From Cyanidioschyzon merolae (Eukaryota), in NCBI GenBank assembly GCA_000091205.1, contig AP006487.2: a stretch of DNA of 64,000 bases; one strand, given 5' to 3'. Below, in pieces: positions 598-54,569 of this stretch. Each line of letters opens with the position of its first letter. Positions within the stretch are counted from its first letter, which is position 1. The translations under genes were made by a program, and so were the position numbers. The notes below the pieces were generated by a model. The model saw only the letters and a program-made list of their open reading frames with translations, made no database searches and was not told the DNA's origin.

Positions 598-2901
598 CTA
601 ATGAGAGCCGTTGGAGCCATCGAGGTCGCGGCTTGTCCGGATCGGGAGCTCAACCGGGTTGTATGGAACAAAAACGTTCTGCATATATTGCAAGAATCGT
701 CGACGATAGAAAGCTGGCGGGCAAACCGATGGCGCTGCACCGCAATAAATAAAGAGTTTCCAGCCAAACTCCAGTCTTTTGGGTACGCTGTAATCCTGCA
801 GTGCATCAATAATGCCGAGGCGAAGCTTGTATCCAACGTAGTTGCCAGCCTCTCGGCGAAACGCGATCAGATCCCGAAAAAGAAGCTTGTCTTCAGTGGC
901 ATCGGTGATTCTCTGGGCGAGAGTTGGACTTTGCGGGGCCATCCCGGGCGTCGAACCTGGCAGCTGCAGTGTAAGCTTCGCCAGCGGCGACACAGTGCTC
1001 AAGAGAAGCCCCTCCTGGTCTGTGTTTGTTGATTCCAAAATGACCGGCAGCGATTGCTTCTGCGTCTCATCGGCAAACGGGATTTCCGATCCATGCGCTC
1101 GTCCTTCGTGAGTCGCACTGTGCGTGCGTTTCCATAATGGTGCCGGGATCGGTTCCGAGAGCCCAATGAGAAGCGAGTAGTCCATAATATGGAGCTCCTC
1201 CAGGAACGCCGTGTCCCTCTCGATCATGCGCATGAGGATGGTGTAATCATTTGCGCGAATCAGAAACGGTGAGCGAATGTCATCCTCTCTGAATATCGGC
1301 ACCGCAACCAGTTGAGAGAATGCAATTCTCTCTGACCACTCATGCTCCACGAAAGACGTTTGGGGCACCTGCAAATGCAATGGAGGTCTCTCTGTTCCGG
1401 TCTCATTTGAAGCAGCTGGTGATTTGCTTGAGCGAGTGCGTGCATCCGCAAGAGACGCACTTGCCTTTTTCTTGTACCGTTGAGGAAGGCTCCGTAGCGA
1501 CCTGGGGCGCGGCTTCGATCGCCGGCTTCCTTTCAGATCGTACTTTTCATGCAAGCGAAAAGCGGACGGGAATAGGTCCGGGACGACAACGAAACGAATA
1601 TGGTGTCTTTGTCGAGTCCGGATCTGAAACAGCGCTAAGTACTGCGGGAGCAGAGTGCCCAACGGATCTGAAGAAACGTAAGCGAAGTATGCTGGTAGCA
1701 GTTGAATCAGCTTCGAGTACTCCTGTCGCGTAATGGTCTTGAGTAGAAACTGCTGATCGTGCGTCAGGAAGAAAAGTGCCTGGGAGTTACCTGGACTGGG
1801 TATCTCTACCAGTCCTGCTGGGTTGCAGAGCGACCCCAGGAACTCATCGTCAGTGTAGCCGAACACGCGACGCAGACGTGCGAAAACGCGCGGTGCCGAA
1901 AACTCCCATTTGATCGAGTCGCTAAGAGGTTCTATATACCGGTTCGGTACTTCGCGGACACGGTCTCCGGCTTCCACATGGCATACAAAGGCTGCCACAA
2001 AGTCCGCATCCTGCAGAGGGGCATTGCGCTGCTGCCGCTCCTGCTCGTGGAGGACTTGAAGGGATCGGCGCACACCGGCCTGAATATTCAGCGCAATAAA
2101 CCATGAAGGATTATCCTTGAATACAGTAATCCCGGATTTGTTCCGCCGCATCACTTTCGGTTGCAGCGGGCCCCGCAGAAAAGTCGGAAGACTTCGCCGC
2201 GAACCAATACGAAAAACTCCCAGGCGCTGGAAGGTGCGCAGAAAGTCCTCCCTCAGGTTCACTTGTTCACTGAGAGAGTACTCTCGCTCAAAAGCTTGTG
2301 TCAGTTGATCGAGGCCCAAATACTGGACTCGCCGAGCCCCAGTAGAACAGAGCCGATCTCCGCCTGTCCCAGGGCTGTTGGCGTCTGTCGGCGTTGCGTG
2401 CTCGTCGCTTCGAGGGTCATCAAAGTAGCTGTTTCGCAGGTGACCATCATCAATCAACCAAAAGCCGCCTTCGTTCCCTGTATCGATAAACCGTCCGGGT
2501 TGCGGATGCCGTTCACGAACGATCCGTTCGAGCTGTTCGCGATCCATGTCATACACTCGCTTCGCATATTCGTAACGCACTCGCGTGTTTACAGGGAGCT
2601 CAACAAGCGCCTCCCACACCGGGTATGTGCTGGGTGAGGTCTCCAGCGCCACAGCGCGCTCCGCGTCCCAACAACCAAGCGATTCACATGAACCGAGTAA
2701 GATGATGTCCTCGTTCGCGATGGTGTACGAGCGAACCCGAAATACGGCTTCGCAGGTGCTAGGACTTTGGTTTTCGTCAGCATCCACGTTCGAAACGCTC
2801 ACTGAGTTCGAACGAGTCTTCGAAGCGTGGGTTCCTCTGCCTCTCAGGAGGCCGCTCACAGCGGGAATCAGAGACCAAGGCCGTCTCCTCGGCCTCTTCA
2901 T
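598..2901 (-). CDS. Phosphatidylinositol-phosphate kinase (PIPK catalytic core) with N-terminal CBM20-like carbohydrate-binding module
   Basis: Uninterrupted 767-aa ORF starting at a true ATG (cat at 2899-2901 on + strand). PIPK-core motifs read directly: GNSQALFFLTHDQQFLLKTITRQE, HIRFVVVPDLF, MDYSLLIGL, LRLGIIDALQDYSVPKRLE. Residues ~50-125 (FRVRSYT..ILLGSCESLGCWD..YPVWEALVELP..RVRYEYAK) look like a CBM20 starch-binding fold. Confidence 0.8.
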   Translation of the reverse strand: MKRPRRRPWSLIPAVSGLLRGRGTHASKTRSNSVSVSNVDADENQSPSTCEAVFRVRSYTIANEDIILLGSCESLGCWDAERAVALETSPSTYPVWEALVELPVNTRVRYEYAKRVYDMDREQLERIVRERHPQPGRFIDTGNEGGFWLIDDGHLRNSYFDDPRSDEHATPTDANSPGTGGDRLCSTGARRVQYLGLDQLTQAFEREYSLSEQVNLREDFLRTFQRLGVFRIGSRRSLPTFLRGPLQPKVMRRNKSGITVFKDNPSWFIALNIQAGVRRSLQVLHEQERQQRNAPLQDADFVAAFVCHVEAGDRVREVPNRYIEPLSDSIKWEFSAPRVFARLRRVFGYTDDEFLGSLCNPAGLVEIPSPGNSQALFFLTHDQQFLLKTITRQEYSKLIQLLPAYFAYVSSDPLGTLLPQYLALFQIRTRQRHHIRFVVVPDLFPSAFRLHEKYDLKGSRRSKPRPRSLRSLPQRYKKKASASLADARTRSSKSPAASNETGTERPPLHLQVPQTSFVEHEWSERIAFSQLVAVPIFREDDIRSPFLIRANDYTILMRMIERDTAFLEELHIMDYSLLIGLSEPIPAPLWKRTHSATHEGRAHGSEIPFADETQKQSLPVILESTNTDQEGLLLSTVSPLAKLTLQLPGSTPGMAPQSPTLAQRITDATEDKLLFRDLIAFRREAGNYVGYKLRLGIIDALQDYSVPKRLEFGWKLFIYCGAAPSVCPPAFYRRRFLQYMQNVFVPYNPVELPIRTSRDLDGSNGSH

Positions 2902-5540
2902 TGTAAGCGTAGGGTACTCTTAGCTGTGCCAACCTCTCCCGACACCTTTACATATCCCAGAGCGTGCGAGTTCTGAACCCGAAACGCTACTCAGTGGAAA
3001 GCGCTTGTCGAGTGTCGACACGAGCGCCGCTTCCCGTTCCCCGGCAGCAGACCAGCGGCAGCAAGCGACGATTCGGGGGTTCAGGGAGGTGCCGATCCGC
3101 AGCCTGCTGGGACGGGTGCGCGCTCGCCAGCAACGCAGGCCGCCGGATACCGGGGCATGTCCACGGTGCACTCGCAGACGGCGTCGGGGTAGGCACGGAC
3201 GGCAGAGTGGGTATCCGTATGGGCGCTTGAAGGGAGCCTGATTGCCGCAGAGGTCCTCTTCGTGATTCATGGAACTTGAACGAATTTATGCGGCATGCAT
3301 CTTGCTTCGCTGGCTCTCGATAACAATCGCGCAGCCGTGGAAACCTTTGTTCGACGCATTGATGCCGCACCCGATAAGGACTAGGGAATGGAGTATGCGA
3401 GAGCCCGCTCCGTGCATCGCTGATGGTGTACGCAGCCGATAGCTCTGTTGCGCGCTTTCGCTTCAAGGAGCATCGCTGGGGACGCATTCGATGCATGCTG
3501 GTCGGTTTCATACCGAACAGAATTTGCGGTCGATCGACGATGACTCCAGAGCGTTCGACCCGAAGTTGATCGAGCACCAAATGTTGTTCAGCAGGTAGCT
3601 TCTGATGGAAGCTTTTGTTGCTGGTTCGCGGTGATGGACTCGGCGGTTGCCGATGTCTGGTGTGTTCTCGTGCGTTGCACGTTCGCGCACTGCGCCTTGG
3701 TCAGATACGAACGAAGCACGGATGTGCTCGTTTTGTTTCTGCGTTACGATCTTTTCTGCAGTTTTTGAAGATGAACTGCGCCGTCATTGGAAGTTTGCGT
3801 GTAAGAGCTTATGGACTTGCATGTAGCTCTAGGACTTTCGGTCGACTTTTTTGGAGTTGATGCTTCTCCGCTCGAATTCTGTTCTACACGGGAATCGAGA
3901 TGATTCTCGTCGCTCCTGGACCAGCATTCGTGCAAGAACTGATATCACGATACAACTCGCACGTATAGGCTTCCATTTTCCTCCTCGCCTTACGTGCAGC
4001 ATATTCAGATCACGGAAAAATCAGTTGTTCGATGTTGCTGTTTCAACGCAAGTTGCGTGCGCTGCAATTGGCGCCACTGGATGGACATGACACAAAAATT
4101 TGGTGTCGTCCATTGACGATTCGTTGAAAAGCACATGTGAAATGTTCTCGGAACATGTCACGTAAAATAACCAATTCCATTCCAAGTCCGTATTCTTGTA
4201 AGTTTTCGATCAAAGATGAGACGGTGCTCCAAAAGAGTATGGTACCTCCCAGGGGATATGCCTCCAGAATCACATGGTTTCGCTGTTTGCATGGAAAAAA
4301 GTTCTTGGGGCTCGGATTTTCCGCAAAGAAACGATCTCTCTCAAGGAGAAAAGCGTCATCGCTTTGCACGAAGCAAGCGTGGACGGATCCGAATTCGTCG
4401 AATTTTATCCATTCCGGACGCTTTTCCAGGTACTTGTTTCTTCATGGACAACAGCGTCGCGTTCCGTAAATCCTCGATCGAATGGGGCAACGAGCGTTTC
4501 TCTGTGCTGCGGTCAGAACACTCGCTGAAGAGATTTGGTAGCAGAAGCCCATTTTCGTACGGTACGGAGCTCGCGGGCAGGGTAACCGTAGACGGAATCC
4601 AATGGGACCTTCTGAGCCCGTCAAGCACATGTACCGAATGATATGGCAAGCGTTTGCACGCAACGCGGCAGCTTCACGAGCAGGAGATGTGCTTGACATT
4701 TGGGATCACTTGACGACCGTCAAGTTTCACTGCTGCAAAGCTAGCACCGAGGCAATATACAAAAGCATGAAAGCGGCAAAAAAGCCTCGATCGCATCTTG
4801 TGTCTGTGCATGAACTGCGTCACCAACAGGCGGATGCTGCGAAATCGGGAATCAAACGCCGCCACCTGCATCCTTCGGCTCTTGACAACGGAACTGGGAT
4901 CACAAGACACTCGTGCGCATTCAGAGCCGTAGACTAGAGATAGCAAAAGGAAGCTGTGCCCAAAAATTCCACAAACGCCGGTGTTGATCGTATTCAGAAT
5001 AGTCATAAACTTTGGTGTGAACGCCCGTGTTTTTCCCAGTGCACTTTTTTTCAAGCACGATTGCAATAGCAAAGCGTCTGGTGCAAGAGCGTTGCAATCG
5101 CCGTCGCTCCCAGGATACCGATCTGCCGTACGCGCCGCTGCAGGGTCCGCGGATCGCGCGCCCGTGCCAAGCAACGCATCCGCCCTTGGAGCGTTACGCG
5201 CAATGCATCGATGCGATGCATTGCGCTGCGCGCTGCAGGATACCCGCCTGCAGCCGATGCCGTGCGGTGTTCGATCTCCGCATCGACTTGCGTTCAGCGT
5301 TCCAGGGGTTTCGGTTACCGCTCAGCGGCACCTAGGAATCAGAACGCTGTGGAACAGAGCGGTTCTAGGTCTAGTGGACTGTGCCATTTAAATTCTAGGA
5401 AACTTGAACGTTTCTACGGGAGCAATACATCGTCAGGAACCCCAAAACATTAAAGTGTGGGAAGCTGTCGCCACGCGCTGCAAAGGTGCCCGCGTACGGG
5501 TGCGAGCTGCCGACTGTACCGAACAGAATTCGGTCTGAAA

Positions 5541-20506: not shown

Positions 20507-21592
<1,086 letters not shown>

Positions 21593-22229
21593 AAGCCGGG
21601 TTTTGGCTCAACGGGGTACGAGCGGTGCGCTCTGGAAGAATGATGCGCAGGCGTTGTGCGCGTTCGGCGGCAATCGCTGAAAGTGAAATGTGCAGATAAT
21701 GCAAAGTGTCCAGTCGTCCGATTAGGCTCCATGGATGAATGAGGAAGCGGAAGGCGTCCCTGCCATGGTTTTCCCCAGCGTCTACCAGCTGAGTCTATTT
21801 TGGGCGGCACTACTCGAACGCGTCGGGGGAAAAGACGACCCCAGACTCCGGAAAGGCGCCACAGTGTACACCATTTTGGCTATGTTGTGGCGAATCTCGT
21901 GTATCTGTTCGTGTGGATCCACTTCGGGCTGCAGGCAAAAATGGGTACGTCGCACTAACGCGCTATCCTTCATCCGTGGGTCTGAAACACCACTGCGCGG
22001 GAGATCTTTTCGCCCCGTGGAGCATGCCTCCGATAACTTAAGCTTGTCAAAGACGGAGAGAACCATAGCTTACCTATGTGCGCGTAGGAACGCGTATCTG
22101 CCATCAGCACTAGTCGGGAGAACCTGCATGGACTATGAGTAGCCTTGTGCACGGAGCAAGTTCCCTGAAAAACTACCCACCCATGCCCCCGTGTCAGATT
22201 CAAATGGAACACGAAACCGCTTGCTCTGT

Positions 22230-23465
22230 CGCAGCCTTTCTATTTTGGCAAAAATTGGTTTAGATATACAGCCCCGGCATTCGAAGTTTATCAGTATGGG
22301 CTAGCGGATCTACGGGTGGTATTCGGATTCTCGGTCACCTTTACGATGTGGCTCTTTCGACGCTTTGCCGCTGGAATTCGTATATTACCGGAACCGAAAT
22401 GATTCGCAATGGCATCGAATCATGATTCGAAAAATAATCGATGTCGTTCCCCAATTCCTATGTACAAGTCTCTGCACTTGTCTTTTGCTATGTGAAGCGT
22501 GCTCTTGTCACGCATTATGCCAAGTTTTCGAGCTTTCTGTTCCAAGGCGACTCGAGGGCACAGCAGTTTGCGCACCTGAATTCACGACGGAAAGAGAAAA
22601 CGACGTCGTCTCTCGACGGCTCTTTCGCAAGGCTCCTCGCGAACATTCACCCCACTGCTGACGTGAAATTATCGATTCCATGCGAACAACATATGCGTCT
22701 CTCTTGTGGCCGTCGACTAGACGAGATTCCACAACAGCTGGAGACCGCTCACGGGATATGCTTGCAGAGGCGCCCATCTCTTTTTTTTTTGCGTGGAGAA
22801 AGACCCCGGACTCCGACTTGAGACATTCCAGAGATCAGTACCAGTGGGGCGTGCGTCGCTGCTTTGCTTGAAGCAAGTGCAGACGAAGCGAAAGCTCTCG
22901 TCCTGGTCTCGAGCCTGCATTCGCTTTTTCATAATTGTTTCATCATGGTCAACATCGGATTCCACAACTCGTCTACAGAATGGAACAGCGTACGCTTGTT
23001 TGTACCGCGGACAGAGTACTCGCCAATGGTATCGCTCAGAAAAAGTTCATGATCGTTGTGCATTGCACTGGGCAGGAAACCGAGAAGAGCAGCGAGGCGA
23101 AACCTCTGCTCTCTGACCTGGATGTATCGGACGGTAAAGCAAGCATTTTCGCGCCACAATGCAGCACTCGTAGGGGAAAGCGTAGCGGACATGCGGGAAC
23201 ACCCGACCACAACCTCCGGTCACTGCGACGAACGGAGTACCAGGACTATTTCCAGAAGTGATGAACGCAGATGGCGACGCATCGTTCACAGATGCTTTGG
23301 GGTCATGAAATGCGTCAATCACAGCCGCAAGTGTCGAAATCGGTACTCGAACGCTGCCACCAAAATGCTTGGATCGCTGACAACGGACCTGGAAGCGCAG
23401 CAGAGAACCTACTAATCAATGCCGGATATGAAAGATGGGAAAAGCAAGCAGGCATAGAAAACGTT
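22230..23465 (+). pseudogene. TnpB/Fanzor-like RuvC nuclease relic, family II copy 2
   Basis: One frame from 22864 to 23415 is broken by a single stop (~23050). It reads CFIMVNIGFHN (RuvC-I position, N codon 22951-22953), TEYS, NAALVGES, GHCDERSTRT, then KCVNHSRKCRNRYSNAATKML (zinc-ribbon remnant plus RuvC-III position, Y codon 23344-23346). Upstream blocks (ggattctcgg.. at ~22325; RLDEIP) align with copies 1 and 3. Confidence 0.55.
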
Positions 23466-23659
23466 CGCAAAGGCCAATAAGGATGGTATGGAGAAGACAA
23501 CAGCATTTGAATATGTATGCCCGAGTTATAGGGCCCGTTCTGTTTTCTAGTCTTCCAACTCAATTGTGTTTCCCCTCAGATGCGGTGAATAGCAGGAGGT
23601 CGAAATCACGATGGCATGTGTTGTATAGCTTGCAGACGAGGTGACTGTAGGATATATTC

Positions 23660-24500
23660 GTTACTGAATAGTTCAGGGAGAACTGCATTCCTGCTTCGGG
23701 TGAATCATAACACTGTGCTCAGATATCTGAGGAACACTGAAAGAAACAGGTACATGCGTTCCGCGCCAAAACTGGCTCAGTGAAAAACTGCCCGCAATCA
23801 ATCGTATGAAACGGCTCTTTAATCGCCTTACGGAGAACAAAAGCGACGACAGTAGCTGCCAAGAGCGTCTACGTATCTGAATACCTCGTTGGTGCGGTCC
23901 TGAAAATACTTGGGTACAGTCGCATATAAAGTCCAATGTCATTCACGGCCATCTTCAACCGAAATGTCCATTACAGCATTCCAGGGAAGTCGCCATCCGT
24001 ATGAAGCACAGGGATGTGGGTTTGTTTTTCCAGTCGATGAAACTTCCTTCGAACAGAACGGTCAGAGCATGTATAGGTACCCGTGGAGACGGAGCCCGTT
24101 GTATGTGCGATCGAAATCGAAGCGAACTGAGACATCATCACCTGTTCTCGCTACAGTAGATACATTTGGCGGCCTTCGTTTCTCTCCTAGAGAAGGCTCA
24201 TGCAACAGCACCATGCATTTTGTCAAATCACTGAGGACTTTTCTCAGACGCCTGGCGACATCTTTCTATTGGACAACGAGGTATTTCATCTTTCCTCCTC
24301 CGTTCGAGATTTTGCCGATTCTATAGGGATAGGCTTGCTTCTCGTTCCGCCGTACGCTCCGTGATTCAAACCAATCGAACGGGTGTTTCCTATCGTGAAA
24401 CGTAATGATCGCTTCACAGAGCGACTCACTGAAGCGTTCAGCACACGGTGATTCCAGGGCAAATGCCGTCTTGCTTCCGCAAATCCTTCTCGCTCCGAGG
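23660..24500 (+). mobile_element. Tc1/mariner-superfamily (DD34E) transposase relic
   Basis: HTH-like VNHNTVLRYLRN (~23700-23740). First D in VFPVDETSF (gat 24036-24038). Second D in LLDNEVFH (gac 24272-24274). E in LLLVPPYAP*FKPIERVFPIVKR (gaa 24377-24379), 35 codons after D2. In-frame stop and frameshifts present. Confidence 0.6.
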
Positions 24501-24559
24501 GGGGTCCTCTGGCGAGAGCATAAAGGAGTAAGCTCATTTTAAAGAAATTAAGGGATGAG

Positions 24560-25215
24560 CCGGGATGTAAACTCCTGAAGGCCGAAATGGAGGAACGTCA
24601 GCGAAGCACTTCGGATATAGAAAAGCCCGGAGCGCTGTTCGAGCAGCAAATGGCACAGAGGGCACGAGTTCGAGGACTCCGTGCACTGGTGCGTTCAACG
24701 AGCTCCAACAAACGCATGGAGTTCGTGAACAGGGACGAAAACGCTGCTATCAATATCAGACGATTTGCGGTGCCAAAAACGGGACCCGATGAGCAGACCC
24801 GATCCAACGTTGTGGGGTCAGCGTCTCAAACTCGAATTGCATATGGATAAACAGAAACAGGTAGCAGCCGGCAGGCAGGCAGGCAGGCCGTGCAACACTG
24901 GAAGGCGGCAGCACGTCGGTATACATTGAGCGTAACGACGCGAAGCGTTTTCGCTCTGATAACCACATAGCCCAGTCGTCGTATGCTTTTTCTGAGAACC
25001 GTTTCTCGTGATAGTGAAACGCATCGCAGTGGTACTGGTTGCGAATACTTCGCCAGGAAGGGTTTAAAAATCTAGTGACAAGCTGGGGCGTCTCTCCACA
25101 CTCTTGAACGGACACCGGGGACGCCTCCAGTTGCAGCGCACAGTCGTATGAGCTGCTGCCGCGTCGCACTGTACTCTTAAACGGACACGTGGGACACCCT
25201 AAGTTGCAGATCGCG
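24560..25215 (+). pseudogene. TnpB/Fanzor-like relic, family I copy A (3' module plus non-coding tail)
   Basis: AQRARVRGLRALVRSTSSNKRMEFVNRDENAAINIRRFAV (D codon 24734-24736). It aligns at nucleotide level with the copies at 42.2, 48.7 and 54.8 kb. Downstream, ~24900-25215 shares diverged blocks with the tail of copy B (cgctct..catagcc; acggacacgtgg). Confidence 0.55.
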
Positions 25216-25276
25216 TACCGCTTGTGGCTCTTCGGTGCACCAGCTGAACGCCAGGCTCTCAGGCAGAGGGCGAGCG

Positions 25277-29444: not shown

Positions 29445-32400
29445 CGCCACAGGCAGTACAACCGAGCATTTTGCCAGCAGCACCGCGCATGAGACGCAAA
29501 TCTACAGTTGTTGTGGCTGCATTCCTGTGCAATGACGACGGTTCCTCAGTGTATCGATCTGGACCTGGAATGTACTACGAAATGCTGCAAGCATCGAAGC
29601 GATGCTGTGTCGATATGCACCGGTTCCCCGCTGTATTCATATGCTCGATTCGTGCGGGACACGTGGAGGCTTCGACTCTCTGCGCCACCCTGAACAGAGA
29701 GCGTGCCCGCTACCTATCGCTTGTTACTTGCTACCGGTCTGGTTGGAGCGCTTTCATTGATCTCCTGGGGAACGCAGGAAAAAAGACCAGTTCGAGTCTG
29801 GCAATTGGAAAAGCGTGCCCCAAGTTTGACGCCCGTCTGAAGCATGCCATCACATCCTACGTCGCTGCTAAGGTCGTTTTCCGAATAATTAATTTCAGTT
29901 GGGGCTGCGTCGCCAAGCCGCGGACCCCGGATTTTTACTACTGTATCCATAGCGAACAGCGTAGTGCACTCCACTATAGGAAAACGACGAGTTGAGAGTC
30001 TCCTTTGGCACCTTGCTGACTATGATTTGGATTGCGAACTCCATGTGGAGTCGGTGCTGATCCGTTTTGCGCCAAGGAACAGCAAGTGTTCCATCCTTTT
30101 CCATAAGTGCTGTGGTGCAACGAACCACTTCAGCGAGCTCGAGTTGTAGAATCTCTTCGACAGTCCCTGTATACAGAGCAACTGCCTCTACTGCGCCAGC
30201 AAATGCGCTGATTGCGACTACGCAAGCGGTTCCCTGCTGACCGCAACACTGTGCAAGCGATGCTCAAGATACCGAGCGGTGCTCGGTACGTCCAAGATTC
30301 ACAGCTCCCAAGCTGTCGATTTCGCTTCAGAAAGCTGATCAAGTGGATGCTCCGTACAGCTGCGATTCGTAATGCAAACAAAGCACCAGGATACGCCTCG
30401 AGCGACATTGACCACAGACAGCTTGTAAATATGTCGCGATCGAGTCTATACATCGACTTTAGGGCAATTTGGGTTGAACGTGGGCATATTGCGCCACCCT
30501 CTTGCGCATCTGAGAGCACACCAGCACCCCAAGCATTCGACGCATAGAGGAATAGATCGCAGGCGTCGGGATCAAGCCGTGCCGCTTCCGCATGTCCGGA
30601 ATTTTTGCCGGCGATTGGCCAGATGCACGCTGCTACTACTGGAGCCAGCGCCTGCAGTATCTTGAGTAATCGTCAATTCCTGAGATGTTTTTGGTTGCAA
30701 TCAGAGCAGCGAATGTCCGATTACCCGTACCAGCACGCTCTTTTGGTTATTGTTTGGTTTTCTTGCAGGTATTCGATAAAAAGAATGCATCGTGTCGATC
30801 CGATTACAGTCGCTGGATGAATTGGTATTGTCTGTGGTAGCTCGCGAAAAGAACGGCCCCACCTGTGCCTGTCCTTCTATAATGAACTGGGGCATGAACC
30901 GCTTTTCTCATCGCTCTGATCCGACACGTCAGTCTCCCGCAGTAGAACCCTCCAGAACCTCTCTTCGACTGTTTCCTTGCCGATTGATTGTGTAGCGTAC
31001 TTGGATGAAGAAATACTACCAAAGTCACCGCTGGATTTTGACGCCTCCGTACCGCTAATGACAACGGTGATGAAGAGACCCAGAAATACGAATCGAAAAG
31101 CACGCCTGTATGCTAGATAGTCACGCGTCGAAGAGCGCAAGACTGATCTCGTCGTGAAACGCGAGCGCTTATCACAGGACGAACGAGAGTTCATCTCGTG
31201 CAACGAAATGTCCTTCGGGGGAAATGGTACACCTGCACTTGGCTACGCAAACCGGAGCAAACCACTGTTCTGAAAGACGAGCGAAACGGGACGGACGACA
31301 ACACCAGCCCTAGCAGCGATTTAATCCCTTGATCACCGAATCGTCGCCGAACGGACAAGATCGTTCAACAACTCGTGCTTGGTCGACGTATTCTGTGGCT
31401 TCTTTTTTCCCATTTTGTTCCGTCCGGCTCGTAGGTATCATCGGATTGCGTCAATCAGGAGCGGTCAAGGACACCGCAGCTGGCATCGCAGTTGAGCTGG
31501 TCTCTGTGCTGGCTTGTTTTCTCTGGCTCAATCGAAACGAATTCGTTTTTCCAAGACATCCCAGAGCATTTCTATGTTCATCGATGATTAAACGAATCTT
31601 TCGCGTTCGCGACACCAAAATATGCTGCGTACTTTTACGGATCGCAACCCCCCTTCACCGCGCTCGTCTTGCCTGGCTTTTCTGTTTCCTGCCTCGACGC
31701 GTCTCCTCAACCGATTGTTCATACAAGTTTCGGAAGCGAGATCGCCAGTTGTCTACACTCCACTCGATTTTTCGATCAAACCTTCGCGCGACAACACGAC
31801 ACAAATGTTCAGAGCAGATGATGCGATTCGACGTGAGCGAGGCATCAGCGTTTTGCGCATATGCGTACCAGCATATCTTGCCGCGTCGCCGCGCCATCTC
31901 GACGATCGAAGTATGTGAGGTGCCGGTCCTAAAACGTACCAGGCAAACCTCAGAAAGCAACATCATGTCCGGGTTCAGTTCGGGCGCTTTATGAGGCGCG
32001 CATTGTCGACGTTTTCCAGTCATGGTACTGGCCCAGAAAAGTGGGCACTGTTTGAAGGTATGCTACCGTTCAGAGAGAACACGAGCGATCAAGCGGCGCA
32101 CGCGGACGATCGTTACGGGGCGTTCATACGAGCGCGCGGAGGTCACCAACAGTTTCGGTTGTACAGAAGCAAGAAGCGTACATGCACTCACTTCGACTAA
32201 GAGTTGTAAACGAAAATCTCCGATATGTCGTGTGGTTGGGTGCCAGGCAATGGCGCTGGAAGCACTGGAGCGCGCGATGACTGCACCCTTGCGGACTTGT
32301 GGACGGCGTCCAACGAGTGCGGGAATCGATTCCATACGACTCCCGTAGATGCATTCAGGACGATGCCCTCGCATCAATAGCATGGGTGCTCAATGAAACA

Positions 32401-40277: not shown

Positions 40278-42009
40278 CCGCAGTCACCGAAAGCCTTCAC
40301 AAACGCAAGCACAATGCGGGCGCTGGAACGCACCACCGGAGGTGCTCAGCTTCCGGAGGATCCCGATACACGTCGCGATGGCGGACACGCGGGCATTCGA
40401 ACAGCGGCCGCCGTCGGCATCGCGCACACCCAGCGCACACACTGCAACGGCCGGGGTGCGGCGGCGCTCATCAGGGACGGATCAGCGCCGGCGTGCTGTC
40501 CTCCGGCGCGGGGCTGTCGACAGCCGTAGAGCGCCCGCCGTTCCCGCGGCTGGAGAGGCGGCGGCGCTCGCAGTTCCCGCTGCACCCTGGTGCGAGTCCG
40601 GGAGCCTGCACCTTCAGGTTGCAGCACTGAGGGCGGTGGGGATCGGCGTGGGCGCGCCCAGCTCCACAGCATGGCAGGTCTCTGCATGGAGTGCATTTGC
40701 ACAAGAAAGTCGCATCGAGGACTCTGCGTATCTGGACTGCATGTGCGCTTTGCCGATACACGTATACCAGAATAAGACGGAACAGGTCCACGCAGCGAAC
40801 ACGGGCGTGCCTAATAAAGTTTTGATCGCTTCCCGTAAGAGTCAACACAAGATTTTGTGCGTATTTTTGTGACTTGTTATTTTTATTGCTCTTTTTTTGC
40901 TGAATTTCAATGTGCTGGTCTCTAATGTGTCTGCAGCTCCGTTTGTCAGCAGTCGAAGAATGCTGATGGCAGCGTTCTCCTCCCGAGTTCGCAGCATTCG
41001 ATTCTCATTCACGCATTTCGAACAGGCAGGCTGAAGTTGCGATCTCGGCTGCGCTTGTCATGATCATATCCTTTGTAGACAGCCTCAGTGCGCCCTTTGC
41101 AGCATGAACCTTGGCCACGGTCAGTGATTACCGTACGTGCACGACACGACACCTCTTCCGAAAAATGCCCTGTGCCGCACCAAGGAATGCTTCGCTGATC
41201 GGTGTGCGCGTTTGACTGGTACAGAGGGCCCGATGTGTTCCCTGTATTCGTTTTCGCGCCCGGTGCCGTGTTCTCCGATCATGGGCTTGCTCATGGCGAT
41301 CCTTCCAGGGTGTACGCTATCCCCTGCACGCACACGCTGTAACATTGGATGGGCGATTTTTTTGGAACGCGATCTTGTTCATGATGGAGCGGTTGGCGGA
41401 AGGGAATTCCAGGATGGTGAGCAATAGAAAAAATTTAGAGTCGTTTATGTTCAGTTCCTAGAACGCAGTGACATACTCTCTACTCTGAGTAATCGCCGCA
41501 ATGACTGGTGTGCAGCACGAGTCGTTGCTTCCGCTGTGAGCGGCGAGGCTGGATATCGGCGTCATGGCTGGTGCCTGCTCGCAGACGGGTGCTGCGATGG
41601 TCACCTGGCACCGCTTATGGCACCCAGAGAACCGCTTCTGCTGCACGTTCGAACAGACGACGGAGCCAGCGGACCTCTGTGACGACCTCGAAAGCTAGCC
41701 AGGTATTCCAGCTCCTTTGGCGGTGTTCCGCGACGGTTTCATCTCGGCAATGATGCAGCGGATGCACCTCGAGGACAATGGAAACCTACGCTTATCGAAG
41801 TCTGAGCGCGTCTTGTCGCAACGAACTCCAGAGACTGGCATGTTTCGCGTCTCGCATGATACGCTGGCCTCGTTTTAATGTTGCACCTCATTTGTGTTCC
41901 GCTTGCAGGTGCGTGTCATCAAGTGCTTCCTCGCGGGTTATAGCGGACGTGTTCAAAGAGCGTCCATTTTCAAAAATAAACTATCCTAGGGAGATGTGTA
42001 TGTATGAAA

Positions 42010-42690
42010 ATCGGGGATCCTGATGTGCTAGTGTCGCCGGTTTCAACAGAAAAAACGAAAAATTCTCTTCTCACCGACCATCGAGCGAAGGAGAGCAAGT
42101 TTTATGAAAAAGTAGAAAAAGAGAGGAACGGCGGGTGAAAAGTTTTTGTATGCCTGATGTGACGATTACGAGACTGTAACGGGACAGAGGGCACACTGAC
42201 GAAGGCGCCTTGCATTGATGAGTCCCATCAGAGGCAGCAAACGCATGGAATTCGTGAACAGAGACTTGAACTCCGCCATCAAAATCAGACCATTTGTGTT
42301 ACAAAAGGCGAGGCGCGCGGAACTTACGTTAGCGAAAGGTTTGGGACAGCCTCTCAGGTTCGAAGTGTACACGGGACAAATTGAAACCGATATCTGGTTG
42401 CTGGTCAGAAAAAGGCTTCGAGGCGCCTGTGAGTGCGTATCATTTTCCCCTGTCGAGCCGACGCTCTCTGTGGTGCGGCATAGCCGTTCTGTCTCCGTGC
42501 AAGGACCGCATCGGCCCTGTAGACGCTATCGCCGACGCTCTGGGCATGCACTCGGCGCACGATAGAACGTACGGAACGACCATTATATCCGAGAGAAAGT
42601 ATGGGTTACGGAACGTGGAAGTAAGGCGTGGAATGAGGGATACCTTACAGCGCGCTGATGACGAGCGCAGAATCCGAGAACGCTCGCCAC
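42010..42690 (+). pseudogene. TnpB/Fanzor-like relic, family I copy B (5'-truncated, plus tail forming the left palindrome arm)
   Basis: SKRMEFVNRDLNSAIKIR (D codon 42263-42265). Upstream, ..ccatcgagcgaagg.. aligns with copies C and D. Downstream conserved block LVRKRLRGACECV. The tail from ~42452 is the left arm of the palindrome. Confidence 0.5.
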
Positions 42691-42987
42691 AGCAACCACT
42701 TTGGCATTTTTTCACTGACAAAACGTTTACTTAGGCCAGCGTTCTCCGATTATGCGCTTTTTTCTTTTCTTTCTTTTTTTTCAGTGCGAGGTGAGGTATC
42801 CATCAACCCCCTACCTCCATGTTACATTACCTATACTTCGTCTCGGATATTCTGGTCGTTTCATACGTCCTATCGTGTGTGCCTAGTACCTGCCGTTCCG
42901 TATTCGCGTCTGCGCTTGAACCGCTGGAGCAGATAGCTCATAGGGCTAAAACAGCTTTTCTATACCACAGAGGGCGTCGGCTCGAGG
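42452..42987. repeat. Large imperfect palindrome (inverted duplication): arms ~42452-42688 and ~42734-42987, 45-bp centre
   Basis: The reverse complement of 42795-42878 matches 42558-42644 (cacgatag.acgta..gaacgacca..atatccgaga..aagtat.ggt...gggatacc). It extends inward (gcgcagaatccgagaacgctcgcc 42665-42688 vs revcomp of 42734-42757) and outward (ctgtcgagccgacgctctctgtggt ~42450-42474 vs revcomp of 42961-42987). It also shows as YFLSDIMVVPYVLSC / YFVSDILVVSYVLSC in opposite-strand ORFs. Confidence 0.85.
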
Positions 42988-42989
42988 TG

Positions 42990-45900
42990 TGCTTCATCCG
43001 ACGTAGAATCGGGTCTCGTCGTCAGTTTGTGCTCGTACAGTCTGCGGATGCAGGCTTGCCTTCGCTGCACGACACGCTGGAGAAACTTGGTTGTTAGGAT
43101 GAATTCTGGGAGCTGCCTCTCTCCTTCGTGATCATGCATGGAATGCATTGTTGTCGGTTGGCTATGCGGATTTGTGCTTGACACCCACTACAGAAGGAAG
43201 GCGTAGAGAGCACTAAACCCGTGTGCGCATCCGATCCGCTGGACCTTCCGCCTAGAAGGTAGCACGTGAGTTTGTTGGCCACTAATGAGCACTGAGGATC
43301 TGTTAGCGAACCATCAGTTGCCAGTGCTGCACTCAGAGTGAGTGTCCGGCCTTCGACTATCACGGTGTTGCCGAGCTGCTGCTGTCCTTCGAGGAGCTCG
43401 CTGCGCTCCTGCTTCTAGCGCGGCCACTGTAGGCCTAAATATGTCAGCGTCTCGGGGATTTCGTCTCGATAGCAGGTACAGTGTGACTCCCAGTGCGATT
43501 CCAGGGTTCCTATCCGGCTTAGAGCCGGTGCTGGTAGCCAGGAGCCACCAACGCTGATTTTGGCGAGCCACTGGGTACCTCGAGCAAGTCCCGGGAATTC
43601 CAGCGCCTCCCACCAGTAATTGCATGTGTATGCTAGGTTGTAGTTCCGGTATAGAGTCAAGCCGGCGTTACTCGCGCGACTGGTACTGTATCTACGTTCC
43701 CATATTGTTGTTCGGACCGTTCGCTTGAGGCGACGGGAGAATTCTATATTCCTGGGGAATGATTGGGTAGCGTGTTTTCGCCTAAGAGGCGCTTCAGCCA
43801 AATCTGCGCTGATTTCATCCAAGTGATCTTGCGGTGCGTTGGGGTCTGCATGGATATCCGACTGAACCAGGTGTTCATGGTTGGCCCTTTGCCCCATATG
43901 CGTGCCCGGCAGCCTGCTGCTATCGCCTCTGTCGAGGGTATTTGGAGTTCAAGTCCGAGTGCCAGCAGGTTGGTTGCTCTGCTCTGCATTGAGCATCCAA
44001 CTACAACGAGTCGCATTGCCCTGTTGGCGGCTGTCTGCAGACGCGAGGCATTTGTGTGCTTCATGCCGCACCATTCAGCACCACAGGTCGCAGGCTGGAT
44101 GATACATATCCTTAGTGCGCTGGTACGGATTGCTAAGGGGATAGAGGGGTCGGATAAGAATGGGCATGCGATCGCTGTACGTCTATGCATCTTGGCGATC
44201 ATCTCGTTAACGTGTGCCTTTTCGTCGAGCGTCGGCGTGAGACAGACCCTAGGTAGCGATATTTTTCCACGATTGGAATTTCCTGATTCTGCAACCGCCA
44301 CGAGCGATTGCGAATGCTCTGCGAGTCTCCATGGATGGCCATGACGCCGCACTTCGATGCTCCTATGCTCATCTCCCAGCGATCGGCCCAGGCGCTGACT
44401 TGTTCCATGCTAGCCGCAAGCGTTTCCGGGGCGGGTGCCAACAGCACGACATCGTCCGCAAATAGAAGGCCTGCGAGGCGGTTCCCATATGGGCGCTCCC
44501 CATCGGGCATCTCCACAGTCTATCCACGGCACCTCAAGCCCGTATTGTCTGTAGTTGTTAAGCAGATCGTTGATGAAGATGTTGAAAAGGAGCGGGGATG
44601 CAGGATCGCCCTGTCGCAGTCCACGGCGGATTCTTATCGAAGGGGTTCTTGAGCCGTCGCCTAGTCGGATGCGCATCCACGAGTCTGCATAGAGCGCACG
44701 GAAGAACGCTAAGCACTTTGCGGAGACTCCGGCTCGTTCCATCTTCATAAATGGAGCCTCATGCGGGAACGTGTCAAAGGCCTTTTGGAAGTCGACGAAG
44801 CATACGTAAGTTGGTTGTTGGTCGCTAATGAAGCGACGTTGCACCACTTCAATGAGGGTCAGGGCATGGTTCATGCACTCCTCGTGGCTCCGGAATCCAG
44901 CCTGTTCTGGGGCGAAGAACTTGCGTTCCTGGAGGCCGCTGTGGATACGGTTCGTGAGCATGGCGCGAAGTAGCTTCATGATTGACGGGATGAGGCGCAT
45001 AGTCCGGTAGATGTTCATGTCTGTGTGTGTGTGGGAGTCCTTTTTGAGGATCGGTACGACCTCGACAGCCCTCCGTACATCTGGGATGTACGCTTCTTCA
45101 AACATGCGTTGAATGAGCTCCAGAAGGCGTTTGCCTAAGATTGTGTCAGGTTCATCTGGTATCGATGGTGTCCCTGTTGTCCCGTCTTTTGGGGTCGCCA
45201 GTTTCATCCACTCCGCAGGGATACCGTCGATGCCAGGTGTTTTGCGATTGCTTGAGCATAGCAGAGTCCGAACAGATTCAGGCCAGAAAATTGGGTCGTT
45301 CCATTCCGGTACCGGGTCGAGGCGCGGTAGTTCTGCAGCATATCGGTGCCAATAGATTCGGTCTTAGCAGTGCCCAGTTGCGTCTTCATGTAATTCTGTG
45401 CCGTGGTCCGTCCAGGCCTCATTCACTGAGGCACGCTCCGTCCTCAGCGCTTCCTTTTAACAGTTGGTGTGAGCCCCAAGCACTTTCTTGGTGGGTCCAG
45501 TCTCGATCGGATGTAGCCTGGGGTTTCATCTTCGTTGGTGCTCTTCAGCATAGATTCCGCCAGGGAGGCCATTTTGCGGTTTCGATCCTCTCGTTTGTCT
45601 TCTCTGGAAAGTTTCTTCGTTCTTTTGATAGCTTCCTCATGTTGCGCCTGTAGCGCCGGTAGCGCTGCCTTCGCTTCCTTGTCTCCGGCGTTGGCGCGTA
45701 TGGCGGTGCGGTTGACAATCTTGTTGAGTCGGTGGCATTCATGAATCCGAGTTTTGGTACGTCGTTTGAGGTACTGCGGCTTGCTACTGTTGTGTTCAGG
45801 TGCAAGCAGTCCCAATTTTCTGGCAATCTTCTGATTCCCATCTACAAACTCGCGTGCCAATTGGTCTGAAGATTTGTATTCACGGCTTTTCGGATCTTCA

Positions 45901-46950: not shown

Positions 46951-47159
46951 TGCATCGCGCTCGGTGAGCGCACCTCGGAGATCGGGCAGGCATGAGACGC
47001 TACGCGCATGCCACTGTTGAAGGGAAACACGTGACCTTGATCAATAGCGTGTTGTTCTGCTGTAAAAGTCGGATTCCCGTTGAGGGCGTAGCAAAGTATA
47101 GTTTTCAGTTCATTTCTGTTTCAACCCTCAAGTAAAAATACTCGAGTGTTTTTTCGCAG

Positions 47160-47167
47160 TATATAAG
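47160..47167 (+). promoter_or_regulatory. TATA-like box (TATATAAG) ~210 bp upstream of the family I copy C start codon
   Basis: Direct reading, inside an A/T-rich block (47100-47340) that is unusual for this window. No functional evidence. Confidence 0.2.
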
Positions 47168-47376
47168 AGAAGCGTTCAAAGAGCATTCTTTTTAAAAAAA
47201 CTAAAAAAAGGAAAAGTATGTAGGAGCAAGTCCACGATCCTGGAGGCCCACTGTCGCAGGCTGCCAGAAAGAAAACAAAAAACAGTGCCGAGTCCAGAAG
47301 AACAGGGAGAGAGAAGAAGAACCGAAGAGGGGAGGCCCTACGTCGAAGGTGGCAAGAAAGACGACTGTACAACGAG

Positions 47377-48980
47377 ATGGTGGTGAAAGCCTTTCTTCTT
47401 GGACATATCAAGGATCCCTACAGGGAAAAGTTGCGAGACGCTATCGAAAAACGTGTCGACTCGTATTCCGAGAGTATTATCAAGGCGTCGTCAGGGCTGA
47501 TGCATTTGGCGAGGGAGATGTATCGCGACATGGCGCACATGGAAACAGTCGAGATTCCGGACGAGTTTCTCGACATGACCTTTATTTGTCAGCTAATGCT
47601 TGGTACAGCGGAAACGCGGAAGGAAAATGTGCTAGTGCACGCCCTCCACGAAGAACATACCTTTTACAGCTTCAATGGTACTCGATACAAGGTGACGGAG
47701 ATATTTACATCTATGGGGCGATGAAGTACCTCACGAATCTGAAGAACCATTTGACAATGAACCTCGAACGTTTCACGGTACGCGCCGTGTGTGCACTCTA
47801 CCCGGGCCTATCTCGCAAAGGAAAATGGGCGATTATCAATGGCATCACGAAAGATCGTAAGCATGAAGATGAGACGGATTTCGTTGACAAGAAGGCGTCA
47901 AACGAGAGCACGAATGAAGCTTCTGTAATCCGTGCTGCTATTCAAGAGCACCGTGCAATCCTGGGACTGGATTATCCAGCAGAAAAGATATCAGAGTTGA
48001 AAAAAGATAAGGAAACATACGATCGCCTCATTCTACGGTATTTCGTGTTTCTGGACCAAGAACTCGAACGCGAGGCGGAGATGAAGGTGAATAGGGGAAA
48101 AATGAAGAGTGGGAGAGACGGAAGGCTGTCCTAACGGGGAAGCGCTTCAACGTGGTTCCATTGTGCAACATCAAGTCAGATTTTGTGACCATCGGCTCCG
48201 GCGTCCTTTACGGCATCATGAAGCAGATCAGTCCGGAGTTCAGTGTCAGCAGGGAGGACTTCACCGGCGAAAACCGGGAGACGTACTGCAAGAGTATCTT
48301 CGATTTCAAACGTCTGAGAGTGAGCAAGCAAAAGTTGTTTACTGGGATGATCGTAACCGATGGAGTAGAATTGTGTGCAAACTATCGGCGGTTGAAGAGA
48401 GATCGGCCAGTCCCTCCCTCGGCTGCGCCCGTGACGAAGGATCAAGAAAACAAAGAGGTGTATCCTGCGACGCAGGAGGTGGAGGATAGAGACCTTGTCG
48501 TTGACGTGACCAAGGATGAAGAAAGGGAGGAGGCGGATCTTGCGACGCAGGAGGTGCAGGATTACGACCTTGTCGTAGGCGTGGACCCTGGGAATACGAA
48601 TGTCCTAACCATCGCAGCACCGAAGCGTGCGGAAGATGGAAAAGTGCCAGCGGAATCCTGAAGATATACAAAAGTACGGACCGCTGACGGAAGGGCGAAT
48701 GGAAAGGAGAGCGAAAGTTCGAGGATTGCTTGCATCAGTAAGTACAACCAGTGATGGCAAGAAACGGATGGAGTTTGTGAAGCGAGGTTTTAATGCCGCA
48801 ATCAATCTACGGAGATGTGCGGTGCTAGAGAATAAACCTCCAGACTGGACAAGAAGGAACCTTGTTGGACAATCTCTCAAAGGTGAACTATATGAGAGAA
48901 AGCTGGAAGCAGTAGTGGGTAGCCAGTCCAAAAAGACGGGGGGGGGGCGTCTGCACGTCAGCTGGAGACGATTTGTCTAA
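47377..48980 (+). pseudogene. TnpB/Fanzor-like gene, family I copy C: longest copy, N-terminal ~400 codons retained, three frame changes and an internal deletion of the RuvC-II/zinc-finger segment
   Basis: Four consecutive ORFs in frames 1,0,2,0: 47377-47724, ~47700-48134, 48152-48661, 48627-48980. RuvC-I-like [17 protein letters not shown] (gac 48584-48586). RuvC-III position KRMEFVKRGFNAAINLRR (G instead of D, ~48786) lies only ~67 codons later. A 60-bp internal duplication gives [14 protein letters not shown] / [15 protein letters not shown]10 homopolymer at 48938-48947. Confidence 0.6.
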
Positions 48981-49117
48981 GGCGCGTTCGCCGCCATTGC
49001 TGCGTACTGCCGGCGTCGTTCGACTTCGAACGGCGTTCGTGACCGAAGCTCATCCGCGGATCCAGCTGCACGCCGCTGCTTCATTCAGGACGCGTTGTAT
49101 AACAACGTCAGGGAACC

Positions 49118-54350: not shown

Positions 54351-54569
54351 AGGTAGTGCAAAGAACACACCGTACCGGTAAGTCGCGCGTGCCGTGGAGG
54401 CGAACGCTGTCGTTCATTCGGCAGCGCTCGAGGCTGGCACCGACTTGCCCGACTAGATGCACTACTTTTTGCTCTTTGACCACAGTGAGATTGATTAGTC
54501 AGGTGTGTGTCATCAAATGCCTTATTCGGTTTATAGCAGATGGGCTGCAAAGTGCGTTCATTTAGAGAA

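What the first reader, a model, noticed from the sequence alone, without database searches (positions are those of the whole stretch)
22230..25215. Head-to-tail transposon nest: family II relic, then Tc1-like DD34E transposase, then family I 3' module, all on the + strand
Within 3 kb, in one orientation, lie three elements:
- a family II nuclease relic (22230-23465);
- a Tc1/mariner-type transposase relic (HTH VNHNTVLRYLRN, D 24036, D 24272, E 24377, spacing DD34E);
- the family I module, starting only ~60 bp after the transposase relic.
In the family I module, the degenerate RuvC-I equivalent (EPGCKLLKAEMEE vs [13 protein letters not shown]) starts almost directly after the transposase C-terminus. 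Fanzor-type genes are known to ride inside DNA transposons of several superfamilies, including Tc1/mariner. This could therefore be the remnant of a composite element (transposase plus nuclease cargo) rather than three independent insertions.
Basis: partly seen in the sequence, partly recalled or inferred. Interest (0 to 1): 0.6.

Follow-up and report, generated by a model that had tools for sequence, protein, structure and literature searches.

The report
Decayed transposase-plus-Fanzor composite transposon relics
This stretch of the red alga Cyanidioschyzon merolae holds two dead, side-by-side transposon copies, each descended from an element with a cut-and-paste transposase gene followed by a Fanzor (RNA-guided nuclease) gene; that design is known from other organisms, but here it supplies a likely transposase partner for the alga's abundant Fanzor element.

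Summary
The window is Cyanidioschyzon merolae 10D. All three features exist, and the composite idea is right for two of them.

"Family I" is CMe-1A, the published Fanzor1 element (Bao & Jurka 2013). Only its last ~435 bp is here (CMe-1A 2737-3161 = window 24555-24990).

The Tc1/IS630-type DD34E transposase relic is real (23616-24523; Pfam DDE_3 E=8.5e-13).

The two are one unit:
- Eight of eight distinct Cyanidioschyzon loci carrying this transposase relic have the CMe-1 3' module right after it. Five share the same junction (Fanzor ATG fused to CMe-1A 2737).
- All five intact relatives whose contigs were examined are followed, same strand, 31-188 nt on, by a full-length CMe-1-like Fanzor1 gene. 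One unit has 28-nt inverted repeats flanked by TA.

So 23546-24995 is an internally deleted, dead copy of a transposase-plus-Fanzor1 transposon.

"Family II" (22193-23527) is a separate neighbouring insertion of a second, more diverged family of the same design: a transposase relic fused to a Fanzor C-terminus.

This is a known kind (Mariner/Tc1-Fanzor1 composites) with a new member. It gives CMe-1, previously unclassified, a candidate transposase.

The parts
22193..23527 (+). Family II element: a separate, neighbouring insertion. It is a dead internal-deletion derivative of a diverged transposase-plus-Fanzor1 composite. The transposase relic (HTH, NETGF-, DNIAFHKS- and EYSP-type motifs in the family consensus) runs to about 23050. 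The Fanzor-like C-terminal part is at about 23053-23412 (...CVNHSRKCRNRYSNAATKML).
   Evidence: Five copies in the window align over ~1340 bp. The consensus conceptual protein matches intact Fanzor-linked transposases at E=3.7e-20, residues 8-275 against 10-266. It hits Pfam DDE_3 at 4.7e-5 and Cas12f1-like_TNB at 0.018. A Fanzor1 C-terminal HMM hits the family II copies at E=5.6e-4, 7.9e-3, 0.053, 0.23 and 5.8; this copy is the weakest.
23528..23545 (.). 18-bp spacer between the family II 3' end and the start of the composite unit.
   Evidence: Homology among family II copies stops at ...GCCCGAGTT. Homology among composite copies starts at about TCTAGTC.
23546..23615 (+). 5' leader of the composite unit, homologous to CMe-1A positions ~788-862 (the region just upstream of the Fanzor1 5'UTR in CMe-1A).
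   Evidence: This is where homology begins in the six-copy alignment A3. The local alignment of consensus 26-55 against CMe-1A 788-819 scores 29, against 16.0 +/- 2.5 for shuffles (one of 500 reached 30), with a second colinear block at 846-862.
23616..24523 (+). Pseudogene of an IS630/Tc1-mariner-type DD34E transposase (about 300 aa when intact). Landmarks: ATG 23616, HTH ~23690-23725, D 24036-38, D 24272-74, E 24377-79, stop TAA 24521-23. It has at least one frameshift (~24210-24240) and at least five in-frame stops.
   Evidence: Pfam DDE_3 at 3.5e-8 and 8.5e-13; IS630 NF033545 at 2.1e-15. Intact transposases align by tblastn from residue 1 to ~285 at E=1e-28. The ancestral sequence reconstructed from six copies hits ~295-aa DDE_3 proteins at E=3.4e-68.
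24524..24554 (+). Intergenic spacer between the transposase stop and the Fanzor1 start, homologous to CMe-1A 869-905.
   Evidence: Composite consensus 1008-1033 matches CMe-1A 869-894 at 88.5%, E=3e-4. The spacer is aligned in all six copies.
24555..24904 (+). Stub of the Fanzor1 (CMe-1) gene. The start codon ATG (24555-57) is fused to CMe-1A 2737, deleting CMe-1A ~906-2736, which includes RuvC-I. It encodes the equivalent of CMe-1 residues 612-731, with a remnant of the RuvC-II region (RDE) and the RuvC-III motif NRDENAAINI at 24728-24757 (D codon 24734-36).
   Evidence: blastn at 73.3% against CMe-1A 2737-3020, E=9e-43. tblastn at 52.5% over 120 aa, E=1.3e-25. Fanzor HMM at 1.4e-22. The same ATG|AGCTGGG junction occurs in L012, L013, L017 and L032.
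24905..24995 (+). 3' untranslated end (right end) of the element, equal to CMe-1A ~3085-3161. It contains a (GGCA)n run at 24870-24888 just upstream. Nothing beyond about 25001 belongs to the element.
   Evidence: The local alignment to CMe-1A runs to 3161 at window 24990. Homology among copies ends here. TRF found the (GGCA)n run.

Best explanation
Window 23546-24995 is one dead, internally deleted copy of a two-gene DNA transposon. The ancestral element carried an IS630/Tc1-mariner-type DD34E transposase gene, then about 40 nt later on the same strand the CMe-1 Fanzor1 gene (a TnpB-like RNA-guided nuclease) and its 3' end.

In this lineage the Fanzor1 ORF was deleted from its ATG to codon ~611, between two ATG-containing sites. 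What remains is leader, transposase, spacer and the last ~435 bp. That deleted form then spread to several genomic sites and decayed neutrally.

The adjacent family II element (22193-23527) is an independent insertion of a second, more diverged family of the same design. Its deletion fuses the transposase ORF (to about residue 266) directly to the last ~150 codons of a Fanzor1.

Shown here:
- homology of each part;
- the repeated junction;
- the two-gene architecture of intact relatives.

Inferred from known families:
- The ancestor moved by cut-and-paste with TA targets.
- Fanzor1 with a 3'-encoded guide RNA helped retain or home the element, as TnpB does.
- The ~435-bp 3' stub is kept in every deletion variant because it holds the right end and/or the guide-RNA gene.
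For: - Source and family I: the source is C. merolae 10D. Family I is the published CMe-1A.
- Repeated unit: a metagenome scan with the relic's translation found five paralogous loci besides the orthologues. Two more came from protein look-ups. All eight loci have different flanks. All eight have the CMe-1 module starting ~100 nt after the transposase match. Five have the ATG|2737 junction. Three keep CMe-1A 869-~1000 and then jump to ~2770-2850.
- Age: pairwise identity is similar in the two halves (68-70% and 60-73%) and star-like, as expected for one burst of a single unit.
- No nested transposon: the transposase segment is almost exactly an ORF sitting between sequences that are contiguous in CMe-1A (862|869), with no repeats of its own.
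- Intact relatives: the reconstructed transposase hits 147 proteins, best E=3.4e-68. In all five contexts examined the gene is followed, same strand, 31-188 nt on, by a 619-705-aa ORF that is a full-length CMe-1 homologue at 29-42% identity, E=1e-73 to 0.
- Termini in a relative: L021 has 28-nt inverted repeats (82% complementary) just outside both genes, each flanked by TA.
- Family II has the same two halves.
- A third transposase-plus-Fanzor relic lies at 31022-32365.
Against: - No terminal inverted repeats above chance and no definable target duplication exist in this copy or in the six-copy consensus.
- No Cyanidioschyzon copy was seen with both genes intact.
- CMe-1A itself lacks the transposase. 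Its leader is contiguous across the site, and it extends at least 140 bp further 5' than the composite, so the two forms do not share a left end.
- Deletion variants with and without the transposase share the same Fanzor deletion (window 41720-42504 and 54384-55031 versus L011, L015 and L022). This needs either recombination between elements or repeated precise loss.
- The paralogues come from hot-spring metagenome contigs, not from the 10D assembly.
- Evidence for a structured RNA in the 3' stub is weak: z=-2.4 and no Rfam match.
Confidence: 0.85

Rival explanations
1. Passenger capture. A transposase ORF was acquired once by a CMe-1 Fanzor element (by recombination or template switching) at position 862/869 of its leader. 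It was then carried along by whatever unknown mechanism moves CMe-1 elements. On this view the transposase is cargo of the Fanzor element, not the reverse.
For: The leader and spacer flanking the transposase ORF are contiguous in CMe-1A. Variants with and without the transposase share the same internal Fanzor deletion. Neither the composite nor CMe-1A has terminal inverted repeats (PMC3627910).
Against: All five related intact transposases whose contigs were examined, from hosts with very different G+C content, sit in the same position and orientation ahead of a full-length Fanzor1. The pair is therefore ancestral, not a one-off capture in this alga. One of these units has outer inverted repeats with TA flanks enclosing both genes. 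Family II and the relic at 31022-32365 are independent, diverged examples of the same pairing in this genome.
Confidence: 0.11
2. Chance adjacency. Three unrelated old insertions piled up in one intergenic region of a compact genome, all happening to face the same way.
For: The region is a 3.7-kb intergenic gap between two host genes. 5'-truncated or deleted CMe-1A pieces are common: four sit in this window. Three elements sharing one orientation has a chance of 1 in 4. Family II is indeed a separate insertion.
Against: For the transposase relic and the CMe-1 module, eight of eight independent loci show the same order and orientation, and the junction falls into only two classes.
Confidence: 0.02
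3. The unit or its 3' stub is still functional, for example as a domesticated gene or an expressed guide RNA.
For: The reading frame 24524-24850 is open. The 3' 277 nt of CMe-1A folds somewhat better than shuffles, z=-2.4. Every deletion variant keeps this stub.
Against: The transposase has at least five stops and a frameshift. RuvC-I is deleted. Copies differ by ~30-40% in a star-like pattern typical of neutral decay. There is no Rfam match.
Confidence: 0.02

Closest known systems
CMe-1A, the Fanzor1 element of Cyanidioschyzon merolae (Bao & Jurka 2013, Mob DNA 4:12; PMC3627910)
   Same: Window 24555-24990 is a 73%-identical copy of its last ~435 bp. The leader and spacer of the unit match CMe-1A 788-862 and 869-905. 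The level of decay is the same (copies ~80% identical to the consensus in the paper).
   Different: CMe-1A as published has no transposase, no terminal repeats and 'unknown' classification. The unit here carries a DDE_3 transposase ORF inserted between CMe-1A positions 862 and 869, and lacks CMe-1A 1-787 and 906-2736.
Mariner/Tc1-Fanzor1 composite transposons: PUl-1, PUl-2 (Pythium ultimum) and PGv-1 (Phaeocystis globosa virus); also the 'autonomous Mariner/Tc1' Fanzor associations of Jiang et al. 2023 (PMC10530073)
   Same: A transposase gene comes first and a Fanzor1 gene second, on the same strand within one element. Intact relatives found here have the same layout, and one has 28-nt inverted repeats with TA flanks, as PUl-1 has (24 bp, TA).
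   Different: The PUl-1 transposase is only distantly similar (tblastn E=8.6e-4 over 73 aa). The algal copies are deletion derivatives with no detectable terminal repeats. Reciprocal derivatives (transposase-only stub and Fanzor-only CMe-1A) both multiplied.
IS630/Tc1/mariner superfamily transposases (Pfam DDE_3 PF13358; NCBIfam NF033545)
   Same: N-terminal HTH region, DD34E triad, about 300 aa, and a PPY[AS]PxxNPIE motif.
   Different: It is a pseudogene here, with no terminal repeats or TA duplication recognisable. It scores below NCBIfam's IS630 equivalog cut-off (57 versus 100 bits).
Bacterial IS200/IS605 and IS607 elements (TnpA plus TnpB with a 3' guide RNA)
   Same: A transposase gene is followed by a TnpB-family nuclease gene whose 3' end and downstream sequence are the part retained. 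The likely logic is a nuclease that helps the element persist.
   Different: The transposase is a DDE enzyme, not a Y1 or serine recombinase. The host is a eukaryote. The guide RNA has not been shown here.

Membership tests
IS630/Tc1/mariner (DDE_3) transposase | RNase-H-fold catalytic domain with a DDE triad, 34 residues between the second D and E | tested here: met
   D 24036, D 24272, E 24377. Pfam DDE_3 at 8.5e-13, 48.8 bits against a 28.6-bit cut-off.
IS630/Tc1/mariner (DDE_3) transposase | N-terminal helix-turn-helix DNA-binding region | tested here: met
   Window 23616-23780 aligns to residues 1-50 of the transposase HMM at E=1.2e-9. Several homologues carry Pfam HTH_Tnp_Tc3_2.
IS630/Tc1/mariner (DDE_3) transposase | Terminal inverted repeats at the element ends | tested here: not met
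   No inverted repeat above shuffled controls was found in this copy or in the six-copy consensus. They are present in the related intact unit L021.
IS630/Tc1/mariner (DDE_3) transposase | TA target-site duplication | tested here: inconclusive
   The termini cannot be placed to the nucleotide in the decayed copies. TA flanks both repeats of L021.
IS630/Tc1/mariner (DDE_3) transposase | Intact open reading frame | tested here: not met
   There are at least five stops and at least one frameshift. The longest related ORFs in Cyanidioschyzon contigs are 234-255 aa.
Fanzor1 (eukaryotic TnpB homologue) | RuvC-I aspartate (GxDPG motif) | tested here: not met
   It is deleted. The relic starts at CMe-1 residue 612, whereas the motif GADPGNTN lies at about residue 430.
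Fanzor1 (eukaryotic TnpB homologue) | RuvC-II glutamate in the DE[FY]xTS motif | tested here: inconclusive
   Only 'RDE' remains at 24549-24557, and FRTSYTHHE is missing at the deletion junction.
Fanzor1 (eukaryotic TnpB homologue) | RuvC-III RDxNAAxNI motif | tested here: met
   NRDENAAINI at 24728-24757. The Fanzor C-terminal HMM scores E=1.4e-22.
Fanzor1 (eukaryotic TnpB homologue) | Guide (omega) RNA encoded at the 3' end | tested here: inconclusive
   The 3' 277 nt of CMe-1A folds with z=-2.4. There is no Rfam match. Expression cannot be tested with these tools.
CMe-1A family | Nucleotide similarity to the published consensus at the level of other copies (~80%) | tested here: met
   73% over CMe-1A 2737-3161. 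This is somewhat lower than typical and belongs to a separate 3'-module cluster.
Mariner/Tc1-Fanzor1 composite transposon | Transposase and Fanzor1 in one unit, same strand, transposase first, recurring at several loci | tested here: met
   Eight of eight Cyanidioschyzon loci and all five intact relatives examined.

The most novel reading that the evidence does not exclude
The ancestral two-gene transposon split into reciprocal deletion derivatives that both multiplied. One is a transposase-bearing form that kept only the last ~435 bp of Fanzor1. The other is the Fanzor1-only CMe-1A (~150 copies). On this reading the two complemented each other in trans. The ~435-bp stub retained by every variant (breakpoints cluster at CMe-1A 2737-2770 in three different deletions) would be the minimal cis element: right end plus guide-RNA gene. 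That would make C. merolae, which is easy to transform by homologous recombination, a natural system to test what Fanzor does for a DDE transposon.
Probability: 0.25. Interest if true: 0.6.

Novelty: new member of a known kind. Interest (0 to 1): 0.4.

Why it matters
Fanzor1 nucleases riding in Mariner/Tc1 transposons have been documented since 2013. The abundant C. merolae family CMe-1A, however, was published without a transposase, without terminal repeats and with 'unknown' classification.

The relic here, its seven paralogues and the intact two-gene relatives give that family a specific candidate partner: an IS630/Tc1-type DD34E transposase. They also show how the element broke down into transposase-only and Fanzor-only derivatives.

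Every derivative keeps the last ~435 bp. This marks where the cis-acting end and probably the guide RNA lie, which helps anyone trying to reconstitute this Fanzor. For genome annotation, several 'unknown' repeats in this compact genome can now be filed as decayed Tc1/mariner-Fanzor1 composites.

Tried and rejected
- A protein search with the relic's own frame-corrected translation found nothing at E<=0.001. Only the ancestral sequence reconstructed from six copies reached intact homologues.
- Pfam on single ORF fragments of families I and II gave nothing. Fanzor1 is poorly covered by Pfam: CMe-1 itself scores only E=0.51 on the TNB domain.
- Searches for terminal inverted repeats around 23440-23720 against 24400-24620 or 24850-25260, and between the ends of the six-copy consensus, scored at the level of shuffles. 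A 12-nt inverted pair bracketing family II (22195/23504) is not conserved in other copies.
- A short match between the composite's 5' end (GTCTTTCAA) and the reverse complement of the CMe-1A 3' end (GCCTTTCAA) is suggestive, but too short to count.
- The correlation of pairwise distances between the two halves of the unit was uninformative, because the copies form a star.
- I first thought the sequence just upstream of 24555 continued CMe-1A near position 2680. The multi-copy alignment shows it is CMe-1A 869-905.
- A possible 10-nt remnant of the transposase C-terminus inside CMe-1A (853-868) was considered as evidence that CMe-1A lost the transposase. The match is not significant (E=2).
- The Rfam scan gave one sub-threshold snoRNA hit, taken as chance.
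Full report
**Source and setting.** The rRNA dimethyltransferase encoded at 20519-21592 is identical to BAM79375.1 of Cyanidioschyzon merolae 10D. Nearly identical contigs occur in hot-spring metagenomes. The finding lies in the 3.7-kb gap between that gene and a DEAH helicase gene starting near 25277.

**Family I is a published element.** Family I has four copies in the window and family II has five.

Bao & Jurka 2013 (PMC3627910) describe one Fanzor1 family in this alga, CMe-1A:
- 3169 bp, about 150 copies, each ~80% identical to the consensus;
- no terminal repeats, classification unknown.

I took the consensus from their Additional file 2. It matches window 46956-49015 at 85%, with CMe-1A 2252-2766 missing. 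It matches the finding at 24555-24836 (73%, E=9e-43), extended by local alignment to CMe-1A 2737-3161 = 24555-24990. At protein level CMe-1 residues 612-731 align at 52.5% identity, E=1.3e-25.

**The transposase relic is real.**
- Pfam DDE_3 gives 3.5e-8 on one fragment and 8.5e-13 (above the curated cut-off) on the frame-corrected translation. NCBIfam IS630 gives 2.1e-15.
- Intact homologues align from the ATG at 23616 to about 24445, with a frameshift and at least five stops. The original stop is TAA 24521-23.

A scan of metagenome contigs with the relic's translation returned the orthologous locus three times and five paralogous loci: L011, L012, L013=L014, L015 and L016=L017. Two further loci came from proteins found later: L022-L031 (one locus in ten samples) and L032. 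The flanks of all eight are unrelated.

In every one the transposase relic is followed ~100 nt later by the CMe-1 C-terminal module. The multiple alignment shows one unit of about 1.45 kb:
- a ~70-nt leader homologous to CMe-1A 788-862;
- the transposase ORF;
- a ~30-40-nt spacer homologous to CMe-1A 869-905;
- the Fanzor1 ATG.

In five copies (window, L012, L013, L017, L032) the ATG is fused straight to CMe-1A 2737. In three (L011, L015, L022) the first ~35 Fanzor codons remain before a jump to ~2770-2850. The shared junctions mean the deletions happened before the copies spread.

Pairwise identity is 68-70% in the transposase part and 60-73% in the 3' module, and star-like. That fits one old burst of a single unit.

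**Intact relatives.** A transposase sequence reconstructed from the six-copy consensus hits 147 proteins, the best at E=3.4e-68 and 48% identity, nearly all ~295-aa DDE_3 proteins. I looked up five of them. Each is followed on the same strand, 31-188 nt later, by a 619-705-aa ORF. These ORFs are full-length CMe-1 homologues:
- 29-42% identity, E from 1e-73 to 0;
- GxDPG, DEFRTS and NRDxNAAxNIRR motifs present.

The contigs range from 29% to 48% G+C. Two have gene content that looks like giant viruses (my inference from neighbouring Pfam hits).

L021 has 28-nt inverted repeats (82% complementary) 15 nt before the transposase ATG and 176 nt after the Fanzor stop, each flanked by TA. This is the Mariner/Tc1-Fanzor1 design already described for PUl-1 and PGv-1 (PMC3627910) and listed among the associations in PMC10530073.

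**Family II.**
- The five copies align over ~1340 bp; here that is 22193-23527.
- A frame-corrected consensus translation aligns to the Fanzor-linked transposases over residues 8-275 at E=3.7e-20, and hits DDE_3 at 4.7e-5.
- Its last ~120 residues (...VVDIWEHLTAAKFHCC...CLCMKCVNNSRMRRNRDSNAATNML) hit a Fanzor1 C-terminal HMM in all five copies: E=5.6e-4 for the best and 5.8 for the copy in the finding. They also hit the Pfam Cas12f1-like TNB domain at 0.018.

Family II is therefore a second, more diverged deletion derivative of the same kind of composite, with the deletion inside both ORFs. It ends 18 bp before the other unit starts and is a separate insertion. The paralogues of the composite unit do not have family II in that upstream position, although one (L015) has a reverse-strand family II fragment ~25 bp upstream.

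**What is not explained.**
- No terminal repeats or target duplications could be found in the algal copies.
- CMe-1A lacks the transposase precisely between positions 862 and 869, and reaches further 5' than the composite.
- Two window copies (41720-42504 and 54384-55031) share the Fanzor deletion of L011, L015 and L022 but have no transposase.

Either the transposase ORF was lost cleanly more than once, or the elements exchanged modules. The alternative that the transposase was captured by a Fanzor element cannot be fully excluded. It is unlikely, given the conserved pairing in distant hosts.

**Mechanism.** By analogy with Tc1/mariner and with TnpB, the ancestor probably moved by DDE cut-and-paste and used Fanzor1 with a 3'-encoded RNA to persist. 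None of this is shown here, and all copies seen are dead.

Three different deletions have breakpoints at CMe-1A 2737-2770, so the last ~435 bp is always kept. That region folds slightly better than shuffles, z=-2.4, which is weak support for a cis element or guide RNA there.

**Verdict.** What is new is the link to C. merolae's CMe-1 family.

Noticed in passing
window 31022-32365 (+): A third, different transposase-plus-Fanzor relic. The transposase HMM hits 31022-31270 (E=2.5e-9). Fanzor1 pieces follow at 31925-32056 and 32069-32365. CMe-1 residues 509-652 match by tblastn at 30% identity, E=6e-11.
   Followed up: partly
window 46956-49015 (+): Best-preserved CMe-1A copy in the window (85% to the consensus, starting at CMe-1A 648). 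It has a 515-bp internal deletion (2252-2766) that removes the region between RuvC-I and the C-terminal module.
   Followed up: yes
window 41720-42504 (+) and 54384-55031 (+): Two CMe-1A internal-deletion derivatives (about 650-1000 joined to about 2755-3167) with no transposase. They share their deletion with the transposase-bearing copies L011, L015 and L022, and their 3' modules cluster with those of L011 and L015 (L022 was not in the tree).
   Followed up: partly
CMe-1A positions 2737-2770 (window 24555, 48634, 42104, 54667): Three structurally different deletion variants all have their 3' breakpoint within ~35 bp of each other, so the last ~400-435 bp is always retained. This could mark the start of a cis-required end or guide-RNA gene.
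   Followed up: partly
window 42453-42623 (-), 42810-43013 (+): Fragments matching CMe-1A 84-282, which is the separate ~635-bp element TE-N2_CMe of Bao & Jurka, in both orientations just downstream of a CMe-1A derivative.
   Followed up: no
window 23527/23546; window 40800-42000 (-) next to 41720-42504 (+); L015 3160-3814 next to 3839; L022 5330-5386 next to ~5290: Family II copies repeatedly lie within a few tens of bp of CMe-1-type elements. This could be a target preference for each other's ends, or simply the few tolerated intergenic sites in a compact genome.
   Followed up: no
window 25082-25136 and 25155-25209 (+): Two 55-nt direct repeats (75% identical, 73 nt apart) just upstream of the helicase gene. 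They lie outside the transposon relic and are not shared with other copies.
   Followed up: no
window 24870-24888 and 56318-56343: A short (GGCA)n / (CAGG)n run inside the Fanzor stub, with a 26-nt near-identical reverse-strand match elsewhere in the window. It is absent from the other composite copies.
   Followed up: no
L033 (25-kb contig) and L035 (53-kb contig): Intact transposase-plus-Fanzor1 units sit among genes typical of giant viruses: NAD-dependent DNA ligase, eIF4E, GIY-YIG, RNase III, ERCC4 and DNA methylases. This echoes the virus-borne Mariner-Fanzor elements of the 2013 paper.
   Followed up: no
L005 10001-12259: A 752-aa apparently intact CMe-1 Fanzor1 gene (71% identical to the consensus protein) in a Cyanidioschyzon metagenome contig, with no transposase gene beside it.
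   Followed up: partly
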